Positions 84 through 40,035 are shown, counted from the first letter of the stretch. The stretch is 64,000 nucleotides of DNA from an uncultured Verrucomicrobiota bacterium (GCA_964470065.1 CAYYAR010000004.1:26329-90328); one strand, 5' to 3'. Translations and numbers: made by a program. The notes: generated from the sequence alone by a model not told the origin.

Positions 84-160
<77 letters not shown>

Positions 161-8321: not shown

Positions 8322-9769
8322 ACCTGGACACATCCGCCGCGCACCCGCGCGCTCATGCTCCCGGCAGCTACCGGGAGGTCTTTGGTATCGCCTGGCCCCT
8401 GGTGGTCAGCATGGGCAGTTTCACGCTCATGCAGTTTATCGACCGCATGTTTCTCGCCTGGTACAGCCCGGTCTCGATCCAGGCCGCGCTGCCCGCCGGT
8501 ATTTTATCCTTCACGTTTGTATGCACCTTCATGGCGTTGTGTGGCTACGCCAATACATTTGTCGCGCAATACCATGGCGCCGGCGACCCCGCGGGGTGCA
8601 GTCGCTCGACGATGCAGGCGGTGTGGTTATCGGTCATGATCTGGCCGTTTTTGATTGTTTCCATTCCGCTGGGCTGGTGGTTTCTCGAATTGAGTCGTCA
8701 TGCGCCGGAGGTTCTCGCCGAGGAAATCGTTTATTTCACCTGGCTCACGGCGGGCGGGGTGCTGGTGCCGCTGGGCGCGGCGATCAGCAGCTTCTTCACC
8801 GGGCGCGGAGAGACGCGCACGAACATGATCGCATCGATGGCGGGCAATGTCGTGAATCTGGTGCTCGACTACATGTTGATTTTCGGCAAGTGGGGCGCGC
8901 CGGAAATGGGGATTCGCGGCGCGGCGATCGCCACGCTGATCGCCGGACTAGTGGCGCCGGCGATTTTGTTCACGCTGTATTTCTCCCGCCGTTATCATCT
9001 TATGTATCGCACCCGCGAACACCTCCGCATCGAATGGTCGCTCATGATGCGGCTGGTGCGATTTGGTCTGCCGTCCGGGCTTAATTTGTTGATCGATATT
9101 TCCTCGTTCAGTTTATTTATTTTAATTTCCGGCCGCATCGGCGAGCTTGCCCTGGCCGTGAGCAACATGGCGCTGAGCATCAACACGCTCGCCTTTTTGC
9201 CGCTGGTGGGATTGGGCATTGCCGCGGCGACGCTGGTTGGCCAATACCAGGGTCGCGGCGACTCCGCCACTGCGGCGCTGGCCGCGCGCCGGTCGGTAAC
9301 GATTGGATTGATCTACGTGATTGCGATTGGCGTCACCTACATTCTTTTTCCGCGATTGTATTTCTCCTTCTTTACCATGCGGGCGGAAAGCGGCTATTCC
9401 ATCGATGAGCTCATGGTGAGCGGGCGATGGATGCTCGTGATCATGGCGATTTGGGGTGTATTCGATGCGGTGAATATCATTCTCGCCGGCGCCTTGAAGG
9501 GGGCGGGTGATACGCGGTTTGTCTTGATCTATTCCACGCTGGTTTCGTGGGTATTCTGGGTCCCCGGTGTGCTGGTGATTGTGCTCGTGATGAAACTGGG
9601 GCTGCTGACCATGTGGCTGCATGCCGTAGCTTTTGTGGTGATTCTGGCCGCGGGATATGAGATCCGCTTCCGCCGCGGACGCTGGAAATCGATTCAAGTC
9701 ATCGAAACGCCGCCGCCACCCTCGGCGTCGCGCACCGGGGCCGAGGCGATGGCCGTGTCGGGCGATTGA
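8318..9769 (+). CDS. MATE family efflux transporter
   Basis: 483 aa, 12-TM, MATE/NorM-like. GTG start overlapping the glnS stop; stop TGA at 9767-9769. Confidence 0.85.
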   Translation: MNLDTSAAHPRAHAPGSYREVFGIAWPLVVSMGSFTLMQFIDRMFLAWYSPVSIQAALPAGILSFTFVCTFMALCGYANTFVAQYHGAGDPAGCSRSTMQAVWLSVMIWPFLIVSIPLGWWFLELSRHAPEVLAEEIVYFTWLTAGGVLVPLGAAISSFFTGRGETRTNMIASMAGNVVNLVLDYMLIFGKWGAPEMGIRGAAIATLIAGLVAPAILFTLYFSRRYHLMYRTREHLRIEWSLMMRLVRFGLPSGLNLLIDISSFSLFILISGRIGELALAVSNMALSINTLAFLPLVGLGIAAATLVGQYQGRGDSATAALAARRSVTIGLIYVIAIGVTYILFPRLYFSFFTMRAESGYSIDELMVSGRWMLVIMAIWGVFDAVNIILAGALKGAGDTRFVLIYSTLVSWVFWVPGVLVIVLVMKLGLLTMWLHAVAFVVILAAGYEIRFRRGRWKSIQVIETPPPPSASRTGAEAMAVSGD

Positions 9770-9802
9770 ATTTCGCCCCGGTCAGCGGCCGCGGCCACTG
9801 CC
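9692..9802. repeat. Direct repeat copy 1 (111 bp): the last ~25 codons plus stop of the MATE gene and 33 bp downstream
   Basis: Identical, apart from one mismatch (T/C), to 10246..10356. Confidence 0.9.
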
Positions 9803-10245
9803 TTGAGTTCAACATGTCAAACGCCTGCTATTGCAAGTCATTGAATGGCAAGGGTTGAGTTTTTGATCGGGGTCATTTCGGGTGTCTCATGCTATGTGGC
9901 TTGGTATGGCGACCAGTTGATCTGTGGCATCGTCCGTTGGCGCAGGTGATGGCTCGCGGCATCCGGCCGCATCGCGGCGGCCCATTTTGGGCGCTTTCGG
10001 TGTTGGGCTCTCGGTCGCGGACATGAGTCCAGCGACCGTTCGCCCGCCGTGAAATCGCCGCAAACTGGGCCTACCGCGATGCTCATTTCGCGTGCCGCGA
10101 AATGACCGGATGCCACTCGCGCTCACGCATCTATCCGCCGCCGACGGCGGATAGATAAAGAAAGCATCAACAACCGGATTCTCCGCAAGCTGATTCCCGT
10201 AGGCGTATGCTTGTACGTCAGGGTGTCCCATTGTTGAAGTCAGGA
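9803..10245. other. 443-bp non-coding insert between the 111-bp direct repeats; contains a perfect 12-bp-stem palindrome (10129..10156)
   Basis: No convincing ORF. Imperfect ~12-bp terminal inverted sequences (GAGTTCAACATG at the left end; reverse complement GACTTCAACAATG at the right). Palindrome ATCTATCCGCCG-CCGA-CGGCGGATAGAT. Confidence 0.5.
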
Positions 10246-10356
10246 ATTCAAGTCATCGAAACGCCGCCGCCACCCTCGGCGTCGCGCACCGGGGCCGAGG
10301 CGATGGCCGCGTCGGGCGATTGAATTTCGCCCCGGTCAGCGGCCGCGGCCACTGCC
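10246..10356. repeat. Direct repeat copy 2 (111 bp), a duplicate of the MATE 3' end
   Basis: See copy 1. Includes a second copy of the gene's last ~25 codons plus stop, with no upstream coding frame. Confidence 0.9.
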
Positions 10357-10466: not shown

Positions 10467-13400
10467 CTACGGCAATTTGACGCCGGTGCGGTAGTAGCGC
10501 AAATCGGCGCTGTTGGTGATGCTGAAGCTCAGACTGCCACCGTTACCCGGAACATCGTTCCCGATCGCGTTGGTCCAGTCGAGCTCGCCCCCGAGTTGAT
10601 GCACCCAGAAGACATTATAAAGACGGGCGGTAGAGCTTGGATTAATCAAAATAGTGGCCGTGTTGTTCGTGATTTGATTCAAAGCCGCGCGATTAAAGCC
10701 GGCCGGAAGATTGGTCGGATTCACATCAAAGATAAAGGCCTGGCCGTAGGTGATTTCACCTCCCGGCACGAGCGAGCCAGCCTCGTTGGTCGGGCTCACG
10801 CCGGGGTACTTGTTGAACCAGTCATCGGGTATGCCATCGCTGTTGCTGTCGGAGACGGCACTGGAATTACGGGTGACGGTGATGTTGGTGGAGGTGGTCT
10901 GAGTGCCCGTGGTCGTGATGATGTGCGACATTTCACCGATATAGACGTTGCGCGCGGTGTCGGGGCCGGCGTTGTTGTTGTAAAACTCCAGCCAGGTGAT
11001 GGGTCCGCCGGCGCCCAGCGTGCCGATGATTGTCCCTGAGCCGGTGCTCAATGAATATGCGTTATTTGTGCCGAGGGTCAGATTCAGATTTAGTCCGCTG
11101 TCGGTATGTGCGATAGTCGTTACTCGGCCTGTAGGTATATCGGTAATACGATAAAATAATTCGCTGCCAACGAAATAGAATCTGAAACGAACAGAGCCAT
11201 TGCTGTCTCGCATTTCAAAGCCTACTTGTCCGCCATTATCAATCGTATTGTTATCGAAGCGCACGGCGAAGCTGTCACCGGTGCTCATGGGGGTGACGAA
11301 CGAACGCGTCACCGCCGCGCGGCCACCGTTGTTGGCCCACAAGCCGAATCCCTTGGTGGCGCCGACATGCATGTTGGCGGGTGCATCGGCCAGAAACTGG
11401 CCGGCATTGCTGGCGCTGTGATTCATATACCACTCGTTAAATCCGGCGCCTTGTTTTGAACCATTGGTCCATGCGGTGTACAGCATGGCGGAGTCGGAGT
11501 TGGTGATGGCGCCGGCCACATTCGCGATGCCGGTGAAATCAACCTGATTGGTGCCATTATCCAGGTTCAGGTTGGCGTTCCACGCCCAACCATCGATCGA
11601 GGCGTCCAGGGGCCGGTTCAGTATGCCGGTTTGACCCGTCATGCGATTGGACCAGATTACGCTGGAGAAGTTATAGGCGGCGCGACCGCTGAAGGAGGCG
11701 AGGCTGTTGGTGGTGGAGGTGCCGCTTGAAGGGTTGAGCACTTGAATCGTGCCGCTGCTGATCGCGGCAAACGGGGTGGTTACGCTGACTGCGACGGAAG
11801 TAGCCGACAGGCCAATCGCGTTGGTGGCGCGCAGGTGATAGAGGTATGTGGTTTCCGGCTGCAGGTTGTTGTCGGTGTAACTCGTGCTTTGCGGCGAGGC
11901 AATCAGGGCGCCGTCACGATATACCTGGTATGCGGTGGCGAGCGAGGCGGCGTTCCAAATCAATGAGACCGATGAGCTGTCGAGATCTTGCACGCTCAGT
12001 CCGGTCGGCGCGGCGGGAGCATTGGTCACGGGCAAATTGGTTACGTCAATATTCCAGTTGCCGCCGCCGTTGTTGTCCCACACGTTCGCATTGTTGTTGA
12101 ACACGTAGCGGACAATGGTGGCGTTGGAGGGCACGGTGTAGGTGTAGGTCCAGATGCTGCCGGATTTGGTCATCGGCACGCCCGGTACGGGCGTCCAGTT
12201 GGCGGTGACGTTCTCGTTGTAACCATAATGAATGTTCATCGTGGTGGCGGAGGCGAGCGCGCGGCCGGCCGGATTATAGTTCACCGTCACGGATTGACCG
12301 GCCACCGGCGTGAATGGAACCGTCCATACCGGGCCGGAGGGCGCGTCGCAGTCGATGATGGTGGTGGTCCAGTTTTGTCCGCTCCGGCTGTCGATGTTCG
12401 TGCCGCTTTGGAACCAAACGATGGCGGATGGCGCATTGTCGGGCGCCGAGATGGTGTAGCTCCAGACATTCGGGGATGTGTTGGTCATGGCATATGGCGA
12501 CCAGGCGGAGCCATTGTTGAAGCTGATTTGCATGGTCACCGGGCTTAAACCCTCCAGTGGGCCATTGGCCGCCGAATAGGTGACCGTGATGGGCTCGCAG
12601 TCGCGGGGACTGGGAGAGAAGGTGACACTCGATGACGGGGTAAGGCCGTCGTTGGCAACCCAGACGTGTTGAATTTCGGATTTATGCACATTGCCGAGGC
12701 TGTCCGTGGCTTCGATATAATAGTCGATCAACTTGTCGCGGAAGTTCGGCAGCGAGGCGTCATCGATTTTTGCAAAATAGTAATCGGCGATTACCGGGTT
12801 GGCCCAGAAGGCGGGATCGAATACGAAATAGTCGATCTGGCCGTTGGCCGCCGCGGTATTGAGGGCGGTACGGGTTTTCGGCAACACGCGCTTGGTCATG
12901 TTGATGCTGACCCAGGCCCCGACTTCACTTCCGCCGGCATAGGTCTCGTTCTGATTGGAGTTGAGCGGATTGGTGCCGTCGTTGTCGATGCGGACTTTGA
13001 CTTGAATATTGGTGATGCCGTTGATGTCGTAGGCATGCGTCCAGATGTAGAACCACGAGGGCATCTTTTTGAGGAAGTTGTTATTGTTAATGTGGGGTTC
13101 GTTGTTGAACCAGCCGAACGTGTACCAGCCGGGATTGTAGGGGAACCGCTGCGGCTTCAATACGGTGGGCCCGACTTTGTCTTTGGCCTTGCGGGCCGGG
13201 GTCATGAAGCCTTGGAGTTTTTCGATCGCGTTTTTGGTGGCGAGCGCGGGTTTGACTTCGTCGTCATTGCCGAGACCGCCGTAGTAATTGAAACCGGAAT
13301 CGAGGCCTTTCAGGTAGATGTGCCAGGCGAGCTCGACATCGTTGGGATTGGTCCAGGTTCCGTCCCAGTCATACGGCGAGGCGATCTTCCATTCGTTCAC

Positions 13401-14876
13401 CATGTCGTTGCCGCCATTCTCCTCGCGCAGCACCTGCTCGGCGGTTTCCAGCCAGTTCGCGCCAGCCATGAGCGGAGCGTAGCTGAAGAATTTTAGCGCG
13501 AAGCCCGGCGTTTCCATGTCGACTTGCGTGCCGGGATGCGTGGTGATGCCGCGGTTCGCCACGGTGGCGACCGGCGGTTCGATCCACTTGAGGAAGTTCG
13601 GTGAGCCATAACACATTTCCGGGAAGATCCACGCGCCGTCCTCGATGTGTGAGTCGGTGGTGACGCCGGCCTTGGCGGCATTCACGAAATCCTGTGGCGC
13701 CGAGGGAGTATAACCGGCGCTTGCGGAGGAGCCGAACAATTGAGGTGTGGCCTCGTTCCATGAACTACTGCCGCCGCCCCAGGCGTTGTCGCCGTCGGTG
13801 GAGGGAATCACGATGACCGGCACATTGGCGTGCGGGGCAATATGGTCGCCGATTTTCTGGATGCCCTCGTTGGCATACCCGTAGCGGTAGGACAGCACAT
13901 CATCCGAGGGAACCGCATACATCTTTTTCTCTGCGCCGGTTTCCGGATTAACATATTTCACGCGGTGCAGTTGATAAGCGAACGGGGCAATGTTCCACGC
14001 GGCGTTGCCGGGGTTCGGCATGCCGTACCACCACTGATTTATATTGTCGAATCGCGGCGAGATTTGATCGGCCTTGTTGGGCGGGCTGGAATAGATGCCG
14101 AAGCTGCCCTCGGGATTGGCGCGATCGTTGTAGCTCGGACTGGTGCGGCTGATGTGATGACTGGCGACCAGGGTCCACTCATAACCTTCATCCACCAGCA
14201 CATCGACAAGGTGACGCGAGTAGCCCATCTCGGTCGGGAAGAAACCTTTGGAGTGATCGGACAGGTCGCTGTTGCCGCCCCATGCCTTCCACCAGGCTTG
14301 TTTGAATGCCTGGATCTCTTTGCGGAAAACCGATTTGGGAAGCAGCGGGCCGAGCGAGTGATGGTAGGTAAAGCCAAGCATGTCCATGCGGGTGGAGCCG
14401 GCGGGCGTTGTCCAGCCGCGGGCTTCGCGGTAGCCGGCATTCCAGTTGCCGCCGTACCCGAGATGACCGCCACCGCCGAGTTGGCGGACATTATCGATCA
14501 GTGAGCCGGAATAACTGACACCGAAACCGCCCCGGCTGTCAACGCTGGCCAGGGAGTTGCGCGGACCCTGTTGGTACGCGCTCTTGCGGTCATCGAGGCC
14601 AAAGATGTCGGTAAGATTGTTTTCCGGATGCTGGGAAGGACTGATCCCGCCATAGTTTTGACCGGGCTTGAGAACAATGGAGTCCCACGCGTACTGTCCG
14701 CGCTGGTTTTGCGGTCCGTTGCTGTTCCACTCCGGCCAGTAGAGCGGTTGGTGGTTATGCCAGAATCGGGAGACATACACGTTGTTGTTCGCCGGGGACT
14801 GAGCGTTAGCTTCAGCGCTCAACAGTAAAACCAGCAAACCGCTTCCAACTCGCAACGCCATCGAACTCGACTTCAT
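10467..14876 (-). CDS. Large secreted multidomain glycoside hydrolase, GH57-like catalytic N-terminus with an FN3 domain
   Basis: 1469 aa with a signal peptide (MKSSSMALRVGSGLLVLLLSAEANA). N-terminal blocks resemble GH57 conserved regions: FWHNHQP (region I), GFFPTEMGY (Glu nucleophile region), STDGDNAWGG (HDDGEKFG-like acid/base region). A clear fibronectin type III domain (PAAPTGLSVQDLDSSSVSLIWNA...YQVYRDG...TTYLYHLRATN). Asn/Thr/Ser/Gly-rich beta-rich C-terminal domains. Confidence 0.7.
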   Translation of the reverse strand: MKSSSMALRVGSGLLVLLLSAEANAQSPANNNVYVSRFWHNHQPLYWPEWNSNGPQNQRGQYAWDSIVLKPGQNYGGISPSQHPENNLTDIFGLDDRKSAYQQGPRNSLASVDSRGGFGVSYSGSLIDNVRQLGGGGHLGYGGNWNAGYREARGWTTPAGSTRMDMLGFTYHHSLGPLLPKSVFRKEIQAFKQAWWKAWGGNSDLSDHSKGFFPTEMGYSRHLVDVLVDEGYEWTLVASHHISRTSPSYNDRANPEGSFGIYSSPPNKADQISPRFDNINQWWYGMPNPGNAAWNIAPFAYQLHRVKYVNPETGAEKKMYAVPSDDVLSYRYGYANEGIQKIGDHIAPHANVPVIVIPSTDGDNAWGGGSSSWNEATPQLFGSSASAGYTPSAPQDFVNAAKAGVTTDSHIEDGAWIFPEMCYGSPNFLKWIEPPVATVANRGITTHPGTQVDMETPGFALKFFSYAPLMAGANWLETAEQVLREENGGNDMVNEWKIASPYDWDGTWTNPNDVELAWHIYLKGLDSGFNYYGGLGNDDEVKPALATKNAIEKLQGFMTPARKAKDKVGPTVLKPQRFPYNPGWYTFGWFNNEPHINNNNFLKKMPSWFYIWTHAYDINGITNIQVKVRIDNDGTNPLNSNQNETYAGGSEVGAWVSINMTKRVLPKTRTALNTAAANGQIDYFVFDPAFWANPVIADYYFAKIDDASLPNFRDKLIDYYIEATDSLGNVHKSEIQHVWVANDGLTPSSSVTFSPSPRDCEPITVTYSAANGPLEGLSPVTMQISFNNGSAWSPYAMTNTSPNVWSYTISAPDNAPSAIVWFQSGTNIDSRSGQNWTTTIIDCDAPSGPVWTVPFTPVAGQSVTVNYNPAGRALASATTMNIHYGYNENVTANWTPVPGVPMTKSGSIWTYTYTVPSNATIVRYVFNNNANVWDNNGGGNWNIDVTNLPVTNAPAAPTGLSVQDLDSSSVSLIWNAASLATAYQVYRDGALIASPQSTSYTDNNLQPETTYLYHLRATNAIGLSATSVAVSVTTPFAAISSGTIQVLNPSSGTSTTNSLASFSGRAAYNFSSVIWSNRMTGQTGILNRPLDASIDGWAWNANLNLDNGTNQVDFTGIANVAGAITNSDSAMLYTAWTNGSKQGAGFNEWYMNHSASNAGQFLADAPANMHVGATKGFGLWANNGGRAAVTRSFVTPMSTGDSFAVRFDNNTIDNGGQVGFEMRDSNGSVRFRFYFVGSELFYRITDIPTGRVTTIAHTDSGLNLNLTLGTNNAYSLSTGSGTIIGTLGAGGPITWLEFYNNNAGPDTARNVYIGEMSHIITTTGTQTTSTNITVTRNSSAVSDSNSDGIPDDWFNKYPGVSPTNEAGSLVPGGEITYGQAFIFDVNPTNLPAGFNRAALNQITNNTATILINPSSTARLYNVFWVHQLGGELDWTNAIGNDVPGNGGSLSFSITNSADLRYYRTGVKLP

Positions 14877-15045
14877 ATCGCACCTCTAGTTATGGCCAGA
14901 AATTGCCACGCGCAATCAGCCACTAGTCAAACGTTACACCGGACAGATCTTTTGTTAAGGAAGAAAGAGATAAAAGTTAGAAAAAGTTTCAGGAGCAACG
15001 ACGAGTGAAGTTGTAACGCGTTACGGGGTGGTTACTTGTGACGAC

Positions 15046-37599: not shown

Positions 37600-38250
37600 T
37601 CCCGCAAATCGCTGACCTGCTGGAGTCGCTTTGAAATCGCCTTGGGCGACATGTCAACCGCTGACATTTGGCTCACCACTCAATTTTTCTACATAGTCAC
37701 GATCCAAGCCAGATCCTTGGCGCGTCCGGTGACACGTTTGTTTTTGGTGTAAGCGGTTTTCTCGATGAAGTGAACGGGAACATCCCCATAGTGCCCGTTT
37801 TCCTTGCCGGCCACCGCCACCTCCCGGGTTATTCCGGTAAGCGAGGTAATAATGTATTAACGAACCGGAGGCACGCCCAACTGAACAACCTGCTCCGGCG
37901 TTTGAAAATCACCCGCGGTCAGGCCCAGCGACCCAAAGCCAAAATCGTTCAGCGCCTGAAGCACGTGCGCGGCGTTTTCCGGGGTTGCGCGCACCAGCAG
38001 GTAGATGTCACCGGTAAAACGGGGCGCGCCGTGAAAGGCGAGGGCGTAGACGCCCATGACCAGATACTCAACCTCGCGAGCGTTATACAACGCGAGCACT
38101 ACTTTGAAGTCGGGCTGTGTTTCAATGAAATTGACGCCTTAAACGTTCAACCGCGTCGAGTCGTTGGGCCGGCGATTGTGCAAGCCAAAACGCGAGACTC
38201 ACGCGCACATCACCCTCGGAGCACAAGGGCACTCGTTTGATCACCGGCTC
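37600..38250 (-). pseudogene. Decayed type II TA module (MntA-like nucleotidyltransferase plus HepT/HEPN-like remnants)
   Basis: Minus-strand frames broken by stops. ...AQRLDAVERLRRQFH* then ...LAFHGAPRFTGDIYLLVRATPENAAHVLQALNDF (minimal-nucleotidyltransferase-like GS/ARG...DIDLLV pattern) then ...KENGHYGDVPVHFIEKT (HEPN R/KxxxxHxY-like). Lower GC than the surrounding DNA. Confidence 0.35.
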
Positions 38251-38513
38251 TATCACGCACGCAGCTTATCCGGCTAAAACAATCAGGAAAGGCGCAAAAC
38301 CCGGAAAGAATGGCCGCCGCGAATCGGCTGATCTCTCCTGACTTCAACAATGGGATTCCCCGACGTACATGTATTCGGGAATCAGCTTGCGGAGAATCCG
38401 GGTGTTGATTTTTTCCTCATCTATCCGCCACCTGCGGCGGAAAAAATTTAAACTGTTCTCCCTCAACATCTTGTGCAACAGATAAAAAATATCAAAAAAT
38501 CCTGAACTACGTA

Positions 38514-38542
38514 TTGACACGTAGAGGCGCTAAGGGTTATCA
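38514..38542 (+). promoter_or_regulatory. Candidate sigma-70-like promoter (TTGACA-N17-TTATCA) upstream of the island's first gene
   Basis: A -35 hexamer TTGACA with 17-bp spacing to TTATCA, ~90 bp upstream of the start at 38632, in an AT-rich region. Confidence 0.3.
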
Positions 38543-38631
38543 ATTACAAGCATGCGAGCACGTAAAGTCTTTGCATAATTTCATGGACGAAACGAAACGA
38601 ACAGTATTAAATGCGTAACGTTGGAGAAAAA

Positions 38632-39315
38632 ATGAAAAAAATAACCGCTACACTATTGGGCACGCTGATTGCAAGTTCAGCCGCGCTCGCTCAGACCAAC
38701 CAGGTTTTGAGCCGAAATGCCGTGGGGTATGTGAAAATCAATGTGCCAGCCAGCAACAGCTTGGCTCTTGTCAGCAATCCGTTTGTAGCGTTGGACGAAG
38801 GAAGTGCTCGTATAACAAACGTATTTGCAAGTTTGGTGAACAACAGCACAGTTTCTGTATGGAACGAAGCCAGTCAAAGTTACCTTAATTACGCGAAAAA
38901 CAGTCGCGGTGGTTGGGTTGGTACAGGCGTTACAACTGTGCAGTTTGCCAGAGCTGACGCAGCATTCATCAGGTCTGCAGGAACTTCAACAGTGTTCTTC
39001 ATGGGCGAAGTCCCTGATTCAACTACTGCACCCACGACCACTCAATCGAGAGCTGCCGGGATCACAATGCTTGGAAATCCCTATCCGGTTGAGGTAGCAG
39101 TCACAAATTCATCAATCGGGTTGAGTCTGCCCGCCGGTGGTACAATTAGTATTTGGAATAGCGTTAGTAATAAATACGACAACTTTGCCAAAAACTCCCG
39201 CGGTGCTTGGGTCGGTACGATCACGGCGACAATAAAACCTGGAGACGGACTTGTTATTCGTGCAACCAATGCTACTGCGAACTTTTCAACGACAAAACCC
39301 TACAATTGGCCATAG
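38632..39315 (+). CDS. Secreted protein with two tandem ~95-aa repeats (unknown family)
   Basis: GGAG Shine-Dalgarno 6 nt upstream; signal peptide MKKITATLLGTLIASSAALA. Internal duplication (SNPFVALDEG...SVWNEASQSYLNYAKNSRGGWVGTGVTT versus GNPYPVEVAV...SIWNSVSNKYDNFAKNSRGAWVGTITAT). Lower GC. Confidence 0.65.
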   Translation: MKKITATLLGTLIASSAALAQTNQVLSRNAVGYVKINVPASNSLALVSNPFVALDEGSARITNVFASLVNNSTVSVWNEASQSYLNYAKNSRGGWVGTGVTTVQFARADAAFIRSAGTSTVFFMGEVPDSTTAPTTTQSRAAGITMLGNPYPVEVAVTNSSIGLSLPAGGTISIWNSVSNKYDNFAKNSRGAWVGTITATIKPGDGLVIRATNATANFSTTKPYNWP

Positions 39316-39333
39316 AATCATGGAGGAAAAAAT

Positions 39334-39942
39334 ATGAAAAAAACATCACTAATCATTGCGCTTCTTACAACTCTGTCGTTAAACGCCCAAGCTGGAATCA
39401 ATGTTCTGGTTTCTGGTCTTACGGGATTTTATCGTTCTGATGACACCACGGGTTTGTTGCAAGCGCCCGGCGGCCTTAATGGCTGGATACAATTTATTTA
39501 CTCCACAACAGGAGTAGTTGCCGGACCTGCTGGAATCGGAGGCACTGTAGACGGGAGCGAGTCCATTCTCGATCAGTTTGGTCTAACAAACGCCGGTAAC
39601 TCAGACGATTACGGAACTTTTGTTTACGGTTTAGTTGCTCCGCAGACAACCGGTTTTTGGTACGCTCGGTTATTCGAAGGCGGAAGTTCCACTACCGGAG
39701 CATCAGCCGATAATATCACCGCAGGTACATGGTACTATGAAAGCGCTGTTTATGCTGTGATTAACAACACAGACCCCGCTTCACCAGACGCCCAGTCAAT
39801 TCAAGGAAATAATCCTACCATTCTTCAAACTGCATTCGGTGGCGACTTCGTGAACTACCAAGTCGTTCCTGAGCCTTCCGTCCTTGCCTTCTTAGGCCTT
39901 GGAGGTTTGGCTTTGGCGGCTCGCCGTCGCTTCATCGCTTAA
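39334..39942 (+). CDS. PEP-CTERM sorting-signal secreted protein
   Basis: Signal peptide MKKTSLIIALLTTLSLNAQA; the C-terminus VVPEPSVLAFLGLGGLALAARRRFIA has the VPEP motif, a hydrophobic stretch and basic residues (exosortase signal). Lower GC. Confidence 0.8.
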   Translation: MKKTSLIIALLTTLSLNAQAGINVLVSGLTGFYRSDDTTGLLQAPGGLNGWIQFIYSTTGVVAGPAGIGGTVDGSESILDQFGLTNAGNSDDYGTFVYGLVAPQTTGFWYARLFEGGSSTTGASADNITAGTWYYESAVYAVINNTDPASPDAQSIQGNNPTILQTAFGGDFVNYQVVPEPSVLAFLGLGGLALAARRRFIA

Positions 39943-39970
39943 TCAGCGATTTTGTTTATGGCCATTTGAA

Positions 39971-39998
39971 AGCGCCCTCTCCGGAGGGCGCTTTTTTG
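39971..39998 (+). terminator. Rho-independent terminator after the PEP-CTERM gene
   Basis: AGCGCCCTC-TCCG-GAGGGCGCT followed by TTTTTT. Confidence 0.7.
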
Positions 39999-40035
39999 TT
40001 TTCCAACCGCGTCTCCCGCATTAACCTCATCGACT

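What the first reader, a model, noticed from the sequence alone, without database searches (positions are those of the whole stretch)
10467..14876. 1469-aa secreted GH57-like enzyme with FN3 and long Asn/Thr/Ser-rich beta domains
The N-terminal catalytic region shows GH57-like blocks (HNHQP, a Glu-containing FFPTEMG block, STDGDNAWGG). The remaining ~900 aa are an FN3 domain and low-complexity N/T/S/G-rich repeats, which probably form beta-sandwich carbohydrate-binding or surface-anchoring modules. The C-terminus (LRYYRTGVKLP) is not a PEP-CTERM or LPXTG signal. GH57 enzymes are usually intracellular or archaeal alpha-glucan enzymes of 500-900 aa, so a giant secreted version is atypical. The 12-bp perfect palindrome GTAACGCGTTAC ~137 bp upstream (15013-15024) may be its operator.
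Basis: partly seen in the sequence, partly recalled or inferred. Interest (0 to 1): 0.5.

Follow-up and report, generated by a model that had tools for sequence, protein, structure and literature searches.

The report
Secreted GH119-like starch-degrading enzyme, Verrucomicrobia
This gene encodes a large secreted starch/glycogen-cutting enzyme from a freshwater Verrucomicrobia-type bacterium; it belongs to the small GH119/GH57 amylase lineage, so it is a divergent, uncharacterised member of a known enzyme kind rather than a new kind.

Summary

By sequence it is not a core GH57. The Pfam match covers only 78 of 291 positions, and the family profile hits no solved GH57. It aligns end to end (30% identity, E 2e-73) with ~1290-aa Paenibacillus/Cohnella "alpha-amylases", which I infer to be GH119 proper. 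It sits in a separate clade specific to Verrucomicrobiota, Kiritimatiellia and Lentisphaerae.

The "low-complexity" tail is confidently folded (pLDDT 88). It holds two CBM25/53 starch-binding modules, FN3, an Ig-like domain, a concanavalin-A-like jelly roll and a small C-terminal sandwich. Large secreted modular forms are normal for this lineage.

The 12-bp palindrome exists but is unique in the window and not conserved. A different 15-mer, GGTGTAACGTTTTAC, is conserved upstream of orthologues.

Verdict: probable secreted alpha-amylase-type enzyme, a new member of a known kind, moderate-low interest.

The parts
10467..14876 (-). Whole gene: 1469-aa secreted multi-modular glycoside hydrolase (stop codon at 10467-10469)
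   Evidence: A 100% identical protein, P0001, is already in NCBI on a 120-kb contig.
14802..14876 (-). Signal peptide, aa 1-25 (MKSSSMALRVGSGLLVLLLSAEANA), with predicted cleavage after A-N-A
   Evidence: The same layout is present in 33 of 36 homologues. This was read by eye and hydropathy; no SignalP run.
13197..14789 (-). Catalytic module, aa ~30-560: GH57/GH119-type (beta/alpha)7 barrel plus helical bundle. CSR-1 is H40-N-H-Q-P44, CSR-2 is R163-M-D165-M-L-G, CSR-3 is F-P-T-E216-M-G, CSR-4 is S-T-D361-G-D-N-A-W-G-G, CSR-5 is L-D-S-G-F-N-Y-Y (aa 525-532).
14229..14231 (-). Codon of E216, the predicted catalytic nucleophile
   Evidence: Invariant in 90 of 90 superfamily sequences. It aligns via the paralogue profile with E123 of T. 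litoralis 4-alpha-glucanotransferase.
13794..13796 (-). Codon of D361, the predicted general acid/base
   Evidence: Invariant in 90 of 90. It corresponds to the Asp of HDD*GEKFG (D214 of 1k1w) through a weak second alignment stretch.
12642..13184 (-). Beta-sandwich 'domain C', aa ~565-745, fused to the catalytic module and ending in the conserved DYYIEAxDxxGNVxKSxIQHVWV
   Evidence: Model secondary structure. It is conserved in all three clades at 33-47% identity.
12354..12632 (-). Starch-binding-type module 1, aa ~749-841 (weak CBM53/CBM25 similarity)
   Evidence: Pfam CBM53 E 0.0037 when scanned alone. 28% identical to module 2. pLDDT about 90.
12039..12332 (-). Starch-binding module 2, aa ~849-946, CBM25/CBM53
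   Evidence: Pfam CBM53 32 bits, above its cut-off. PDB 2c3v (CBM25 of amylase G-6) E 1e-5 with the single sequence and 8e-11 with the profile; also 2laa.
11769..12011 (-). Fibronectin type III domain, aa ~956-1036
11499..11756 (-). Ig-like beta-sandwich, aa ~1041-1126, with no family match
10869..11498 (-). Concanavalin-A-like jelly-roll domain, aa ~1127-1336, a putative lectin-type module. It is 56% identical to the same module in the paralogue clade and was not found in the 116 GH119-type proteins retrieved.
10695..10868 (-). Linker, aa ~1337-1394, with a degenerate thrombospondin-type-3-like calcium-binding motif (DSNSDGIPDDW)
   Evidence: Homologues carry Pfam TSP3_bac here.
10470..10694 (-). 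Small C-terminal beta-sandwich, aa ~1395-1469, ending in the family-conserved (F/Y)YRxxxxxP. Function unknown.
14926..14940 (-). Conserved upstream 15-mer GGTGTAACGTTTGAC (family consensus GGTGTAACGTTTTAC), ending about 50 nt before the ATG. It overlaps a -10-like TAACGT and is a candidate promoter/operator.
   Evidence: All 19 matches in 2.13 Mb lie upstream of orthologous genes; shuffles give 0.7.
14953..14958 (-). -35-like hexamer TTAACA, 16 nt upstream of TAACGT
   Evidence: This is inference; the tool's promoter scan found nothing at its thresholds.
15013..15024 (.). It is not conserved and probably not part of this gene's control.

Best explanation
The gene encodes a Sec-exported, extracellular or surface-associated retaining alpha-glucan endo-hydrolase, most likely an alpha-amylase (EC 3.2.1.1).

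- **Catalytic part.** A (beta/alpha)7 barrel, helical bundle and beta-domain belonging to the GH119/GH57 lineage (CAZy clan GH-T).
- **Placement.** It sits in a clade found almost only in Verrucomicrobiota, Kiritimatiellia and Lentisphaerae. That clade is a sister to, but distinct from, the Paenibacillus/Cohnella-type alpha-amylases that I infer to be GH119 proper.
- **Chemistry (inferred).** Double displacement, with E216 attacking C1 of an alpha-1,4-linked glucose to form a covalent intermediate and D361 acting as acid/base.
- **Targeting (inferred).** Two CBM25/53 modules dock the enzyme on starch granules or glycogen. FN3 and Ig-like domains act as spacers.
- **Tail (role unknown).** A concanavalin-A-like jelly roll, a calcium-binding-type linker and a small C-terminal sandwich form a lineage-specific tail. 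It may bind a second glycan or hold the enzyme at the cell surface.

Shown here: the fold, motif invariance, homology relationships and module identities. Inferred: substrate, endo action, localisation and the role of the tail.
For: - **Catalytic residues.** E216 and D361 equivalents are invariant in 90 of 90 full-length relatives spanning three clades. The paralogue-clade profile aligns its 'GFFPPECAF' with 'KGVWLTERVW' of 1k1w (the E123 region) and its 'HSDGDNFG' with 'HDDGEKFG' (the D214 region). The window protein aligns with the paralogue at exactly these motifs.
- **Family.** The catalytic region aligns end to end (aa 32-740) with Paenibacillus sp. 'alpha-amylase' P0523 at 30% identity, E 2e-73. 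Seven other Paenibacillus, Cohnella, Marinicrinis, Myxococcota, Agarivorans and Thalassomonas proteins give E 1e-57 to 1e-66. HMM scores of the window catalytic region are 669 bits against the rest of its own clade, 339 against the paralogue clade and 289 against the GH119-type clade.
- **Literature.** GH119 occurs in Archangiaceae with >60% identical homologues in Cohnella and Paenibacillus (PMC12093494). A GH119 gene was reported in an aquatic Spartobacteria (Verrucomicrobia) genome (PMC3663571). The only activity listed for GH119 among endo-acting enzymes on alpha-1,4-glucans is EC 3.2.1.1, retaining (PMC11701701).
- **Substrate targeting.** CBM53 and CBM25 matches.
- **Context in relatives.** The orthologue is often next to a ~1260-aa paralogue and/or a 2300-2570-aa protein with weak GH13 alpha-amylase Pfam matches.
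- **Secretion.** The signal peptide is conserved.
Against: - No member of this clade has been characterised. The closest proteins carrying an alpha-amylase name are only 27-30% identical.
- The founding GH119 enzyme (IgtZ) could not be retrieved and no dbCAN/CAZy model was available. The GH119 label for the Paenibacillus/Cohnella clade rests on names and a literature statement.
- The catalytic model is only moderately confident (mean pLDDT 65.5, pTM 0.75). Residues 359-376 around D361 and 42-104 are below 50.
- This sub-clade has lost the His next to the catalytic Asp that every other sequence in the 90-sequence alignment keeps: S-T-D versus H-x-D or x-H-D. This could signal altered specificity.
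- GH57 itself contains several other alpha-glucan specificities.
- The window holds no other alpha-glucan utilisation genes.
Confidence: 0.7

Rival explanations
1. It is simply a member of family GH57, i.e. CAZy would place this clade inside GH57 rather than GH119.
For: - The Pfam Glyco_hydro_57 hit is above the gathering score (33 against 21.2 bits).
- JGI and RefSeq label relatives 'glycosyl hydrolase family 57'.
- The fold and catalytic motifs are GH57-like.
Against: - The Pfam match covers only 78 of 291 profile positions.
- A 36-sequence profile hits no solved GH57 at E<=10. Structure-based identity to GH57 structures is 8-17%.
- By contrast there is end-to-end similarity at E 1e-57 to 1e-73, including the extra beta-domain, to the Paenibacillus/Cohnella alpha-amylase clade. 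That clade itself mostly lacks any Pfam GH57 hit.
Confidence: 0.12
2. It has the same fold and machinery but a different alpha-glucan specificity. Candidates are amylopullulanase or debranching, maltogenic/exo-amylase, or 4-alpha-glucanotransferase. It would then complement the co-occurring paralogue and the GH13-like giant.
For: - GH57 has many specificities (PMC6037648).
- In 10 of 86 loci the orthologue sits directly upstream of a paralogue that is only 26-29% identical in the catalytic part. This suggests the two are not redundant.
- The sub-clade has specific changes in CSR-4 (loss of His) and CSR-3 (FFPTEMG against WPPECAF).
Against: - The only activity recorded for GH119 is alpha-amylase (title of Vuillemin et al. 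2024 as cited in PMC13163881; PMC11701701).
- The window protein shares the FFPTE(M/L)G and DSGFxYY motif styles with the GH119-type clade.
Confidence: 0.15
3. It is a non-catalytic surface adhesin or glycan-binding protein built on a dead GH scaffold.
For: - About half of the protein is binding or spacer modules.
- The literature describes GH57 '-like' groups that lack catalytic residues.
Against: - Both catalytic residues and all five conserved regions are invariant across the clade.
- The catalytic region is the most conserved part of the protein, with hundreds of invariant positions in aa 140-740.
Confidence: 0.03

Closest known systems
GH119 alpha-amylases (founder IgtZ of Bacillus/Niallia circulans AM7; Paenibacillus and Cohnella ~1290-aa 'alpha-amylases', e.g. 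P0523, P0480, P0516)
   Same: - The ~710-aa catalytic region, including the C-terminal beta-domain, is colinear end to end.
- It shares the insertion after CSR-1 and the motif styles FFPTE(M/L)G, DGDN and DSGFxYY.
- The conserved blocks KDxxGP(T/S)VxxPQR(F/Y)PYNPG and DYYIEAxDxxGNVxKSxIQxVxV are shared.
- Both have CBM25 and FN3 modules. A signal peptide was checked only in the window protein's own clade.
   Different: - Identity is only 27-30%.
- CSR-1 is HNHQP here against HNHMP there, and CSR-4 is S-T-D-G-D-N-A-W-G-G against A-H-D-G-D-N-S-S-G-R.
- The tail differs: an Ig-like domain, ConA-like jelly roll, TSP3-like linker and C-terminal sandwich here, against PKD, extra FN3 and other modules there.
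- It lies in a separate clade with a different host range.
- IgtZ itself was not available for comparison.
GH57 enzymes with solved structures (T. maritima AmyC 2b5d, S. marinus amylopullulanase 7e1y, T. litoralis 4-alpha-glucanotransferase 1k1w)
   Same: - The (beta/alpha)7 barrel plus helical bundle fold.
- A Glu nucleophile in CSR-3 and an Asp donor in CSR-4.
- A retaining mechanism is expected (PMC6037648).
   Different: - Structure-based identity is 8-17%, and there is no profile-to-sequence hit.
- The solved GH57 chains are about 480-630 aa. GH57 enzymes are mostly cytoplasmic and lack CBMs (established knowledge, not tested here).
- CSR-2 Glu is replaced by D165, and the CSR-4 His is absent.
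Co-occurring paralogue clade ('type B': P0124, 1257 aa; Thiodictyon WP_100923212, annotated GH57; T9SS-tailed Bacteroidota and PEP-CTERM Planctomycetota members)
   Same: - The overall architecture is the same.
- In Verrucomicrobia/Kiritimatiellia it carries the same tail cassette: CBM 65%, FN3 52%, jelly roll 56% identical.
- It is often encoded directly downstream of the orthologue.
   Different: - The catalytic domain is only 26-29% identical.
- It lacks the ~25-aa insertion after CSR-1.
- It keeps GH57-style motifs WHMHQP, WPPECAF, HSDGDNFG and ETSCHWYW.
CBM25 of Bacillus halodurans alpha-amylase G-6 (PDB 2c3v) and CBM53
   Same: Module 2 (aa ~849-946) matches at E 8e-11 with the family profile, including the FNNGxGxWDNNxG block.
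   Different: Module 1 is very divergent (Pfam E 0.0037 only). Binding residues were not examined.

Membership tests
GH57 (CAZy; Pfam PF03065) | Catalytic (beta/alpha)7 barrel followed by a helical bundle | tested here: met
GH57 (CAZy; Pfam PF03065) | Glu nucleophile in CSR-3 and Asp proton donor in CSR-4, within five conserved sequence regions | tested here: met
   E216 and D361 are invariant in 90 of 90 relatives. They are mapped to E123/D214 of 1k1w via the paralogue profile. The D214 stretch of that alignment is not significant by itself.
GH57 (CAZy; Pfam PF03065) | Significant sequence similarity to GH57 members over the whole catalytic module | tested here: not met
   Pfam gives 33 bits but only profile positions 98-175 of 291. 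The 36-sequence profile finds no GH57 chain in the PDB at E<=10.
GH119 (CAZy) | Sequence similarity over the whole catalytic module to GH119 members | tested here: inconclusive
   27-30% identity over aa 32-740, E 1e-57 to 2e-73, to Paenibacillus/Cohnella/Myxococcota 'alpha-amylase' proteins. I infer these to be GH119 from PMC12093494. IgtZ itself was not retrieved, and where CAZy draws the family border is unknown.
GH119 (CAZy) | Assignment by the CAZy/dbCAN family model | not testable with these tools
   No dbCAN library was available, and NCBIfam has no model for it. Indirect support: a GH119 gene was reported by others in an aquatic Spartobacteria genome.
GH119 (CAZy) | Alpha-amylase (EC 3.2.1.1) activity, retaining | not testable with these tools
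   Requires an enzyme assay.
CBM25 / CBM53 starch-binding modules | Match to the family model or to a solved member | tested here: met
   Module 2: Pfam CBM53 32.1 bits (cut-off 27.6), 2c3v E 8e-11 and 2laa E 7e-6 with the profile. Module 1 only reaches E 0.0037.
Fibronectin type III | Match to Pfam fn3 and to solved FN3 domains | tested here: met
Concanavalin-A-like lectin/glucanase fold (e.g. GH16) | Beta-jelly-roll fold; for GH16 also the catalytic ExDxxE strand | tested here: inconclusive
PEP-CTERM / LPXTG / T9SS C-terminal sorting signals | The characteristic C-terminal motif or domain | tested here: not met
   No such motif in the sequence and no Pfam or NCBIfam hit. Some distant relatives do carry Por_Secre_tail or PEP-CTERM.

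The most novel reading that the evidence does not exclude
The clade could turn out to be more than a divergent GH119.

- The Verrucomicrobiota/Kiritimatiellia/Lentisphaerae clade to which this protein belongs is no more than 30% identical to any named enzyme, and its CSR-4 His is lost. It may be a distinct family or subfamily of clan GH-T with its own specificity on algal starch or cyanobacterial glycogen.
- It may be transcribed under a dedicated regulator that recognises the conserved 15-mer GGTGTAACGTTTTAC.
- It may be displayed on the cell through a lineage-specific tail cassette (ConA-like lectin, Ca-binding linker, C-terminal sandwich). That cassette has been exchanged between two anciently diverged catalytic modules.
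Probability: 0.2. Interest if true: 0.5.

Novelty: new member of a known kind. Interest (0 to 1): 0.3.

Why it matters
- **Ecology.** Verrucomicrobiota and Kiritimatiellia are abundant polysaccharide degraders in lakes and seas. At least 204 GTDB species genomes encode a relative of this enzyme, yet nearly all copies are labelled 'hypothetical' or 'carbohydrate-binding protein'. Recognising them as secreted GH119-type amylases gives these bacteria a plausible route to algal starch and cyanobacterial glycogen.
- **Enzymology.** GH119 is described in the literature as a 'very small' family. The data here place it within a superfamily of three deep clades.
- **Regulation.** The conserved upstream 15-mer gives a concrete handle on how this gene is controlled.
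- **Limit.** None of this changes what kind of enzyme it is.

Tried and rejected
**Searches that gave nothing useful**
- NCBIfam scan of the protein: no family.
- Single-sequence and profile searches of PDB sequences for a GH57 or GH119 structure: only CBM25 and FN3 hits.
- The afdb50 fold library was not available.

**Attempts to obtain a bona fide GH119 sequence**
- The Janecek & Kuchtova 2012, Janecek et al. 2014 and Vuillemin et al. 2024 papers are not held.
- Two cluster look-ups of 20 representatives returned only metagenomic 'hypothetical' proteins.
- Plasmid tblastn gave only a Thiodictyon 'GH57' protein.
- The last homologue search, seeded with a K-rich representative, finally reached named Paenibacillus/Cohnella alpha-amylases.

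**Corrected assumption**
- I first took GSLIDN (aa 124-129) to be CSR-2. The 1k1w alignment shows that CSR-2 is R163-M-D165-M-L-G.

**Regulatory and RNA checks**
- Palindrome as operator: rejected.
- Sigma-70 and terminator scans around the gene: no promoter at the tool's thresholds, and terminator-like sites below expectation.
- Rfam on the upstream region: nothing.

**Other ideas tested**
- A second catalytic (GH16-like) role for the jelly roll: no conserved ExDxxE motif.
- Other alpha-glucan genes in the window: none.
- Homology between the 114-aa ORF downstream and the ORF that follows an orthologue: none.

Full report
**Observation**

The ORF at 10467..14876 on the minus strand is 1469 aa and starts with ATG. 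A good Shine-Dalgarno-like GAGGTG lies upstream. An identical protein is already in NCBI on a 120-kb contig, unnamed.

The N-terminus MKSSSMALRVGSGLLVLLLSAEANA|Q has a charged start, a hydrophobic core and an A-x-A site. The same layout, ending A-x-A just before the conserved NGNV..FWHNHQP, is seen in 33 of 36 homologues. Secretion is therefore well supported, although no dedicated predictor could be run.

**Anatomy**

- Pfam finds a short Glyco_hydro_57 match (aa 159-241, 33 bits, profile positions 98-175 of 291), CBM53 (aa 863-920) and fn3 (aa 956-1032).
- PDB sequence searches add CBM25: 2c3v at E 1e-5 with the single sequence and 8e-11 with a family profile, plus 2laa.
N+T+S+G is 39-44% in the tail against 27-35% in the catalytic half.
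- The AlphaFold model of aa 742-1469 has mean pLDDT 87.9 and is a string of discrete beta domains.

| Module | Residues |
|---|---|
| CBM-like module 1 | ~749-841 |
| CBM25/53 module 2 | ~849-946 |
| FN3 | ~956-1036 |
| Ig-like sandwich | ~1041-1126 |
| Concanavalin-A-like jelly roll | ~1127-1336 |
| Linker with degenerate thrombospondin-type-3-like motif (DSNSDGIPDDW) | ~1337-1394 |
| Small beta-sandwich ending in the conserved (F/Y)YRxxxxxP | ~1395-1469 |

**Fold and catalytic machinery**

- The model of aa 1-745 is only moderately confident (pLDDT 65.5, pTM 0.75; loops 42-104 and 359-376 are poor).
- In an alignment of 90 full-length relatives from three deep clades, the residues matching E216 and D361 are invariant.
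- A profile of the paralogue clade weakly hits T. litoralis 4-alpha-glucanotransferase (1k1w, E 0.045). It aligns 'RLDLVG' with CSR-2 'QLEIV', 'KGFFPPECAF' with 'KGVWLTERVW' (nucleophile E123), and, in a second non-significant stretch, 'HSDGDNFG' with 'HDDGEKFG' (donor D214).
- The window protein aligns with the paralogue at exactly these blocks. So E216 is the predicted nucleophile, D361 the acid/base, and CSR-2 is R163-M-D165-M-L-G.
- One peculiarity: the immediate sub-clade reads S-T-D361, where all other sequences in that alignment keep a His one or two residues before the Asp.

**Which family**

By sequence this is not a core GH57. The Pfam hit is partial, and a 36-sequence profile finds no solved GH57 at E<=10.

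An exhaustive phmmer search of 1.84 billion representatives with aa 1-745 found 484 representatives at E<=1e-3. Clustering the full-length ones gives three groups:

| Cluster | Conserved motifs | Notes |
|---|---|---|
| 1 | YHNHMPNFW / FFPTELGF / AHDGDNSSGRAG / DSGFGYYDE | |
| 2 | xHQP or xQQP / HDGDNAWGG / DSGFxYYG | Includes the window protein's sub-clade: HNHQP / FFPTEMG / STDGDNAWGG |
| 3 | WHMHQP / FPPE(C/T/N)AF / H(H/S)DGDN(Y/F)G / ETSCxWYW | More GH57-like |

A homologue search seeded from cluster 1 returned Paenibacillus, Cohnella and Marinicrinis proteins, many of ~1260-1300 aa. They carry CBM25 and FN3, and several are named 'alpha-amylase' by NCBI or UniRef. It also returned a Myxococcota MAG protein and Agarivorans, Vibrio and Thalassomonas proteins. 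Almost none have a Pfam GH57 hit.

A 2025 paper states that GH119 occurs in all Archangiaceae and Corallococcus, with >60% identical homologues in Cohnella and Paenibacillus (PMC12093494). I therefore take cluster 1 to be GH119 in the strict sense. This is an inference, because IgtZ itself could not be retrieved. Nucleophile and donor positions in cluster 1 (E226-254, D371-397, mostly spaced 142-147) are compatible with the E231/D373 that I recall from Janecek & Kuchtova 2012. That recollection is from memory and was not verified here.

The window protein aligns with P0523 (Paenibacillus) over aa 32-740 at 30% identity, E 2e-73. The alignment includes the insertion after CSR-1 and the C-terminal beta-domain.

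HMM scores of the window catalytic region are 669 bits against the rest of cluster 2, 339 against cluster 3 and 289 against cluster 1. It is thus a member of a third, intermediate clade of the GH119/GH57 (clan GH-T) lineage.

A GH119 gene was reported in 2013 in an aquatic Spartobacteria genome (PMC3663571). That is the class of the nearest relatives found here. This makes it likely, though not shown, that CAZy-type annotation already files such proteins under GH119.

**Distribution and context**

- A scan of GTDB species genomes found 204 species with a relative. The best 80 are all Verrucomicrobiota (Chthoniobacterales, Methylacidiphilales, Luteolibacter, Akkermansiaceae, Haloferula rosea KCTC 22201), Kiritimatiellia or Lentisphaerae, apart from one MAG labelled only 'bacterium'. 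The top hits, a Chthoniobacter sp. MAG and a Chthoniobacterales MAG, are 92% and 91% identical.
- In the window the gene stands alone. UbiA-family and GT2 genes lie upstream on the same strand. A convergent MATE transporter gene and a glutaminyl/glutamyl-tRNA synthetase gene lie downstream. There are no other alpha-glucan genes in the 64 kb.
- In relatives the orthologue is often directly followed by a ~1260-aa paralogue (10 of 86 loci). It is often adjacent to a 2300-2570-aa protein with weak GH13 alpha-amylase Pfam matches.
- The paralogue's catalytic domain is only 26-29% identical (cluster 3). Its accessory modules are far closer: CBM 65%, FN3 52%, jelly roll 56%. The tail cassette has therefore been exchanged or homogenised between two old catalytic lineages within these phyla.
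- The jelly roll was not found in the GH119-type proteins retrieved.

**Upstream region**

- The palindrome GTAACGCGTTAC (15013-15024) is real and unique in the window, and near-matches are at chance level. It lies 22 nt after the UbiA-family gene's stop. It is absent from the loci available when it was searched, including the 82%-identical orthologue's upstream region. I find no support for an operator role.
- A different element is conserved. The 15-mer GGTGTAACGTTTTAC (window copy GGTGTAACGTTTGAC, 14926-14940, minus strand) occurs 19 times, allowing up to 2 mismatches, in 2.13 Mb of window plus loci.
- All 19 copies lie within 320 nt upstream of a window-type gene. Positions mapped with the 11-mer core are 37-116 nt before the estimated start codon. 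The hosts range from Verrucomicrobiota to Lentisphaerae. Shuffled sequences give 0.7 matches.
- The element overlaps a -10-like TAACGT, 16 nt downstream of a -35-like TTAACA. It is semi-palindromic. From memory, it resembles LacI-family operators.
- It is a good candidate promoter/operator. The binding factor is unknown. Rfam finds no RNA family there.

**Mechanism and rivals**

- The best reading (confidence about 0.7) is a secreted, starch- or glycogen-targeted retaining endo-alpha-1,4-glucanase. E216 is the nucleophile and D361 the acid/base, and the enzyme is docked to the substrate by the CBM25/53 pair.
- The main rival (about 0.15) is the same machinery with another alpha-glucan specificity. 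This is prompted by the co-occurring divergent paralogue and the altered CSR-4.
- Plain GH57 membership (about 0.12) depends on where CAZy draws its borders.
- A dead-enzyme adhesin is very unlikely, given the invariant catalytic residues.

**Novelty**

- The protein is publicly deposited but unannotated. The enzyme kind (GH119/GH57 alpha-amylase lineage with CBM25 and FN3) is known.
- Its clade has no characterised member, and the closest named enzymes are no more than 30% identical.
- I rate it a new member of a known kind, interest about 0.3.
- The most interesting by-products are the three-clade structure of the lineage, the shared tail cassette and the conserved upstream 15-mer.

**Limits**

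- There was no dbCAN model, no IgtZ sequence and no access to the two key GH119 papers.
- The catalytic model is of moderate confidence only.
- All functional statements are predictions.

Noticed in passing
window 14926-14940 (-), plus -35-like 14953-14958; also L002 7936-7946, L003 794-804, L004 141-151 and 13 further loci: The 15-mer GGTGTAACGTTTTAC (up to 2 mismatches) occurs 19 times in 2.13 Mb. Every copy lies within 320 nt upstream of an orthologue of this gene, in hosts from Verrucomicrobiota to Lentisphaerae; shuffles give 0.7. It is a candidate promoter/operator, semi-palindromic and LacI-operator-like.
   Followed up: partly
L001 234-7943 and 12461-16234; L005 1-5761; L006 10456-14247; 10 of 86 loci overall: In relatives the orthologue is flanked by a 2300-2570-aa protein with weak GH13 alpha-amylase Pfam matches and/or a ~1260-aa paralogue. 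The paralogue's catalytic domain is only 26-29% identical. The window lacks both neighbours.
   Followed up: partly
window 10869-12332 (-) compared with P0124 aa 651-1132: Accessory modules are much more similar between the two paralogue types (CBM 65%, FN3 52%, jelly roll 56%) than their catalytic domains (27%). This implies exchange or homogenisation of a lineage-specific tail cassette. The jelly roll was not found in the 116 GH119-type proteins retrieved.
   Followed up: partly
window 9692-9802 and 10246-10356: A 111-nt direct repeat, 99% identical, with 554-bp spacing, lies just downstream of the gene. The first copy overlaps the 3' end of the convergent MATE gene. The segment between holds a 114-aa ORF (9887-10231, minus strand) with no Pfam match. 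It could be a partial duplication, an insertion or an assembly artefact.
   Followed up: no
L087 (NZ_CP020372.1 321788-323911): A 707-aa protein on a Candidatus Thiodictyon syntrophicum plasmid, annotated 'glycosyl hydrolase family 57', belongs to the paralogue clade (40% identical to P0350). It shares the extra C-terminal beta-domain, so this label in RefSeq covers GH119-like proteins.
   Followed up: partly
window 38001-40000: G+C drops to 0.485 here against about 0.58-0.63 elsewhere. ORFs at 38611-39315 (+) and 39334-39942 (+) lie in the segment, which may be a foreign insert.
   Followed up: no
window 87-160 (-): A single tRNA gene is the only Rfam match in the window at gathering threshold.
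   Followed up: no
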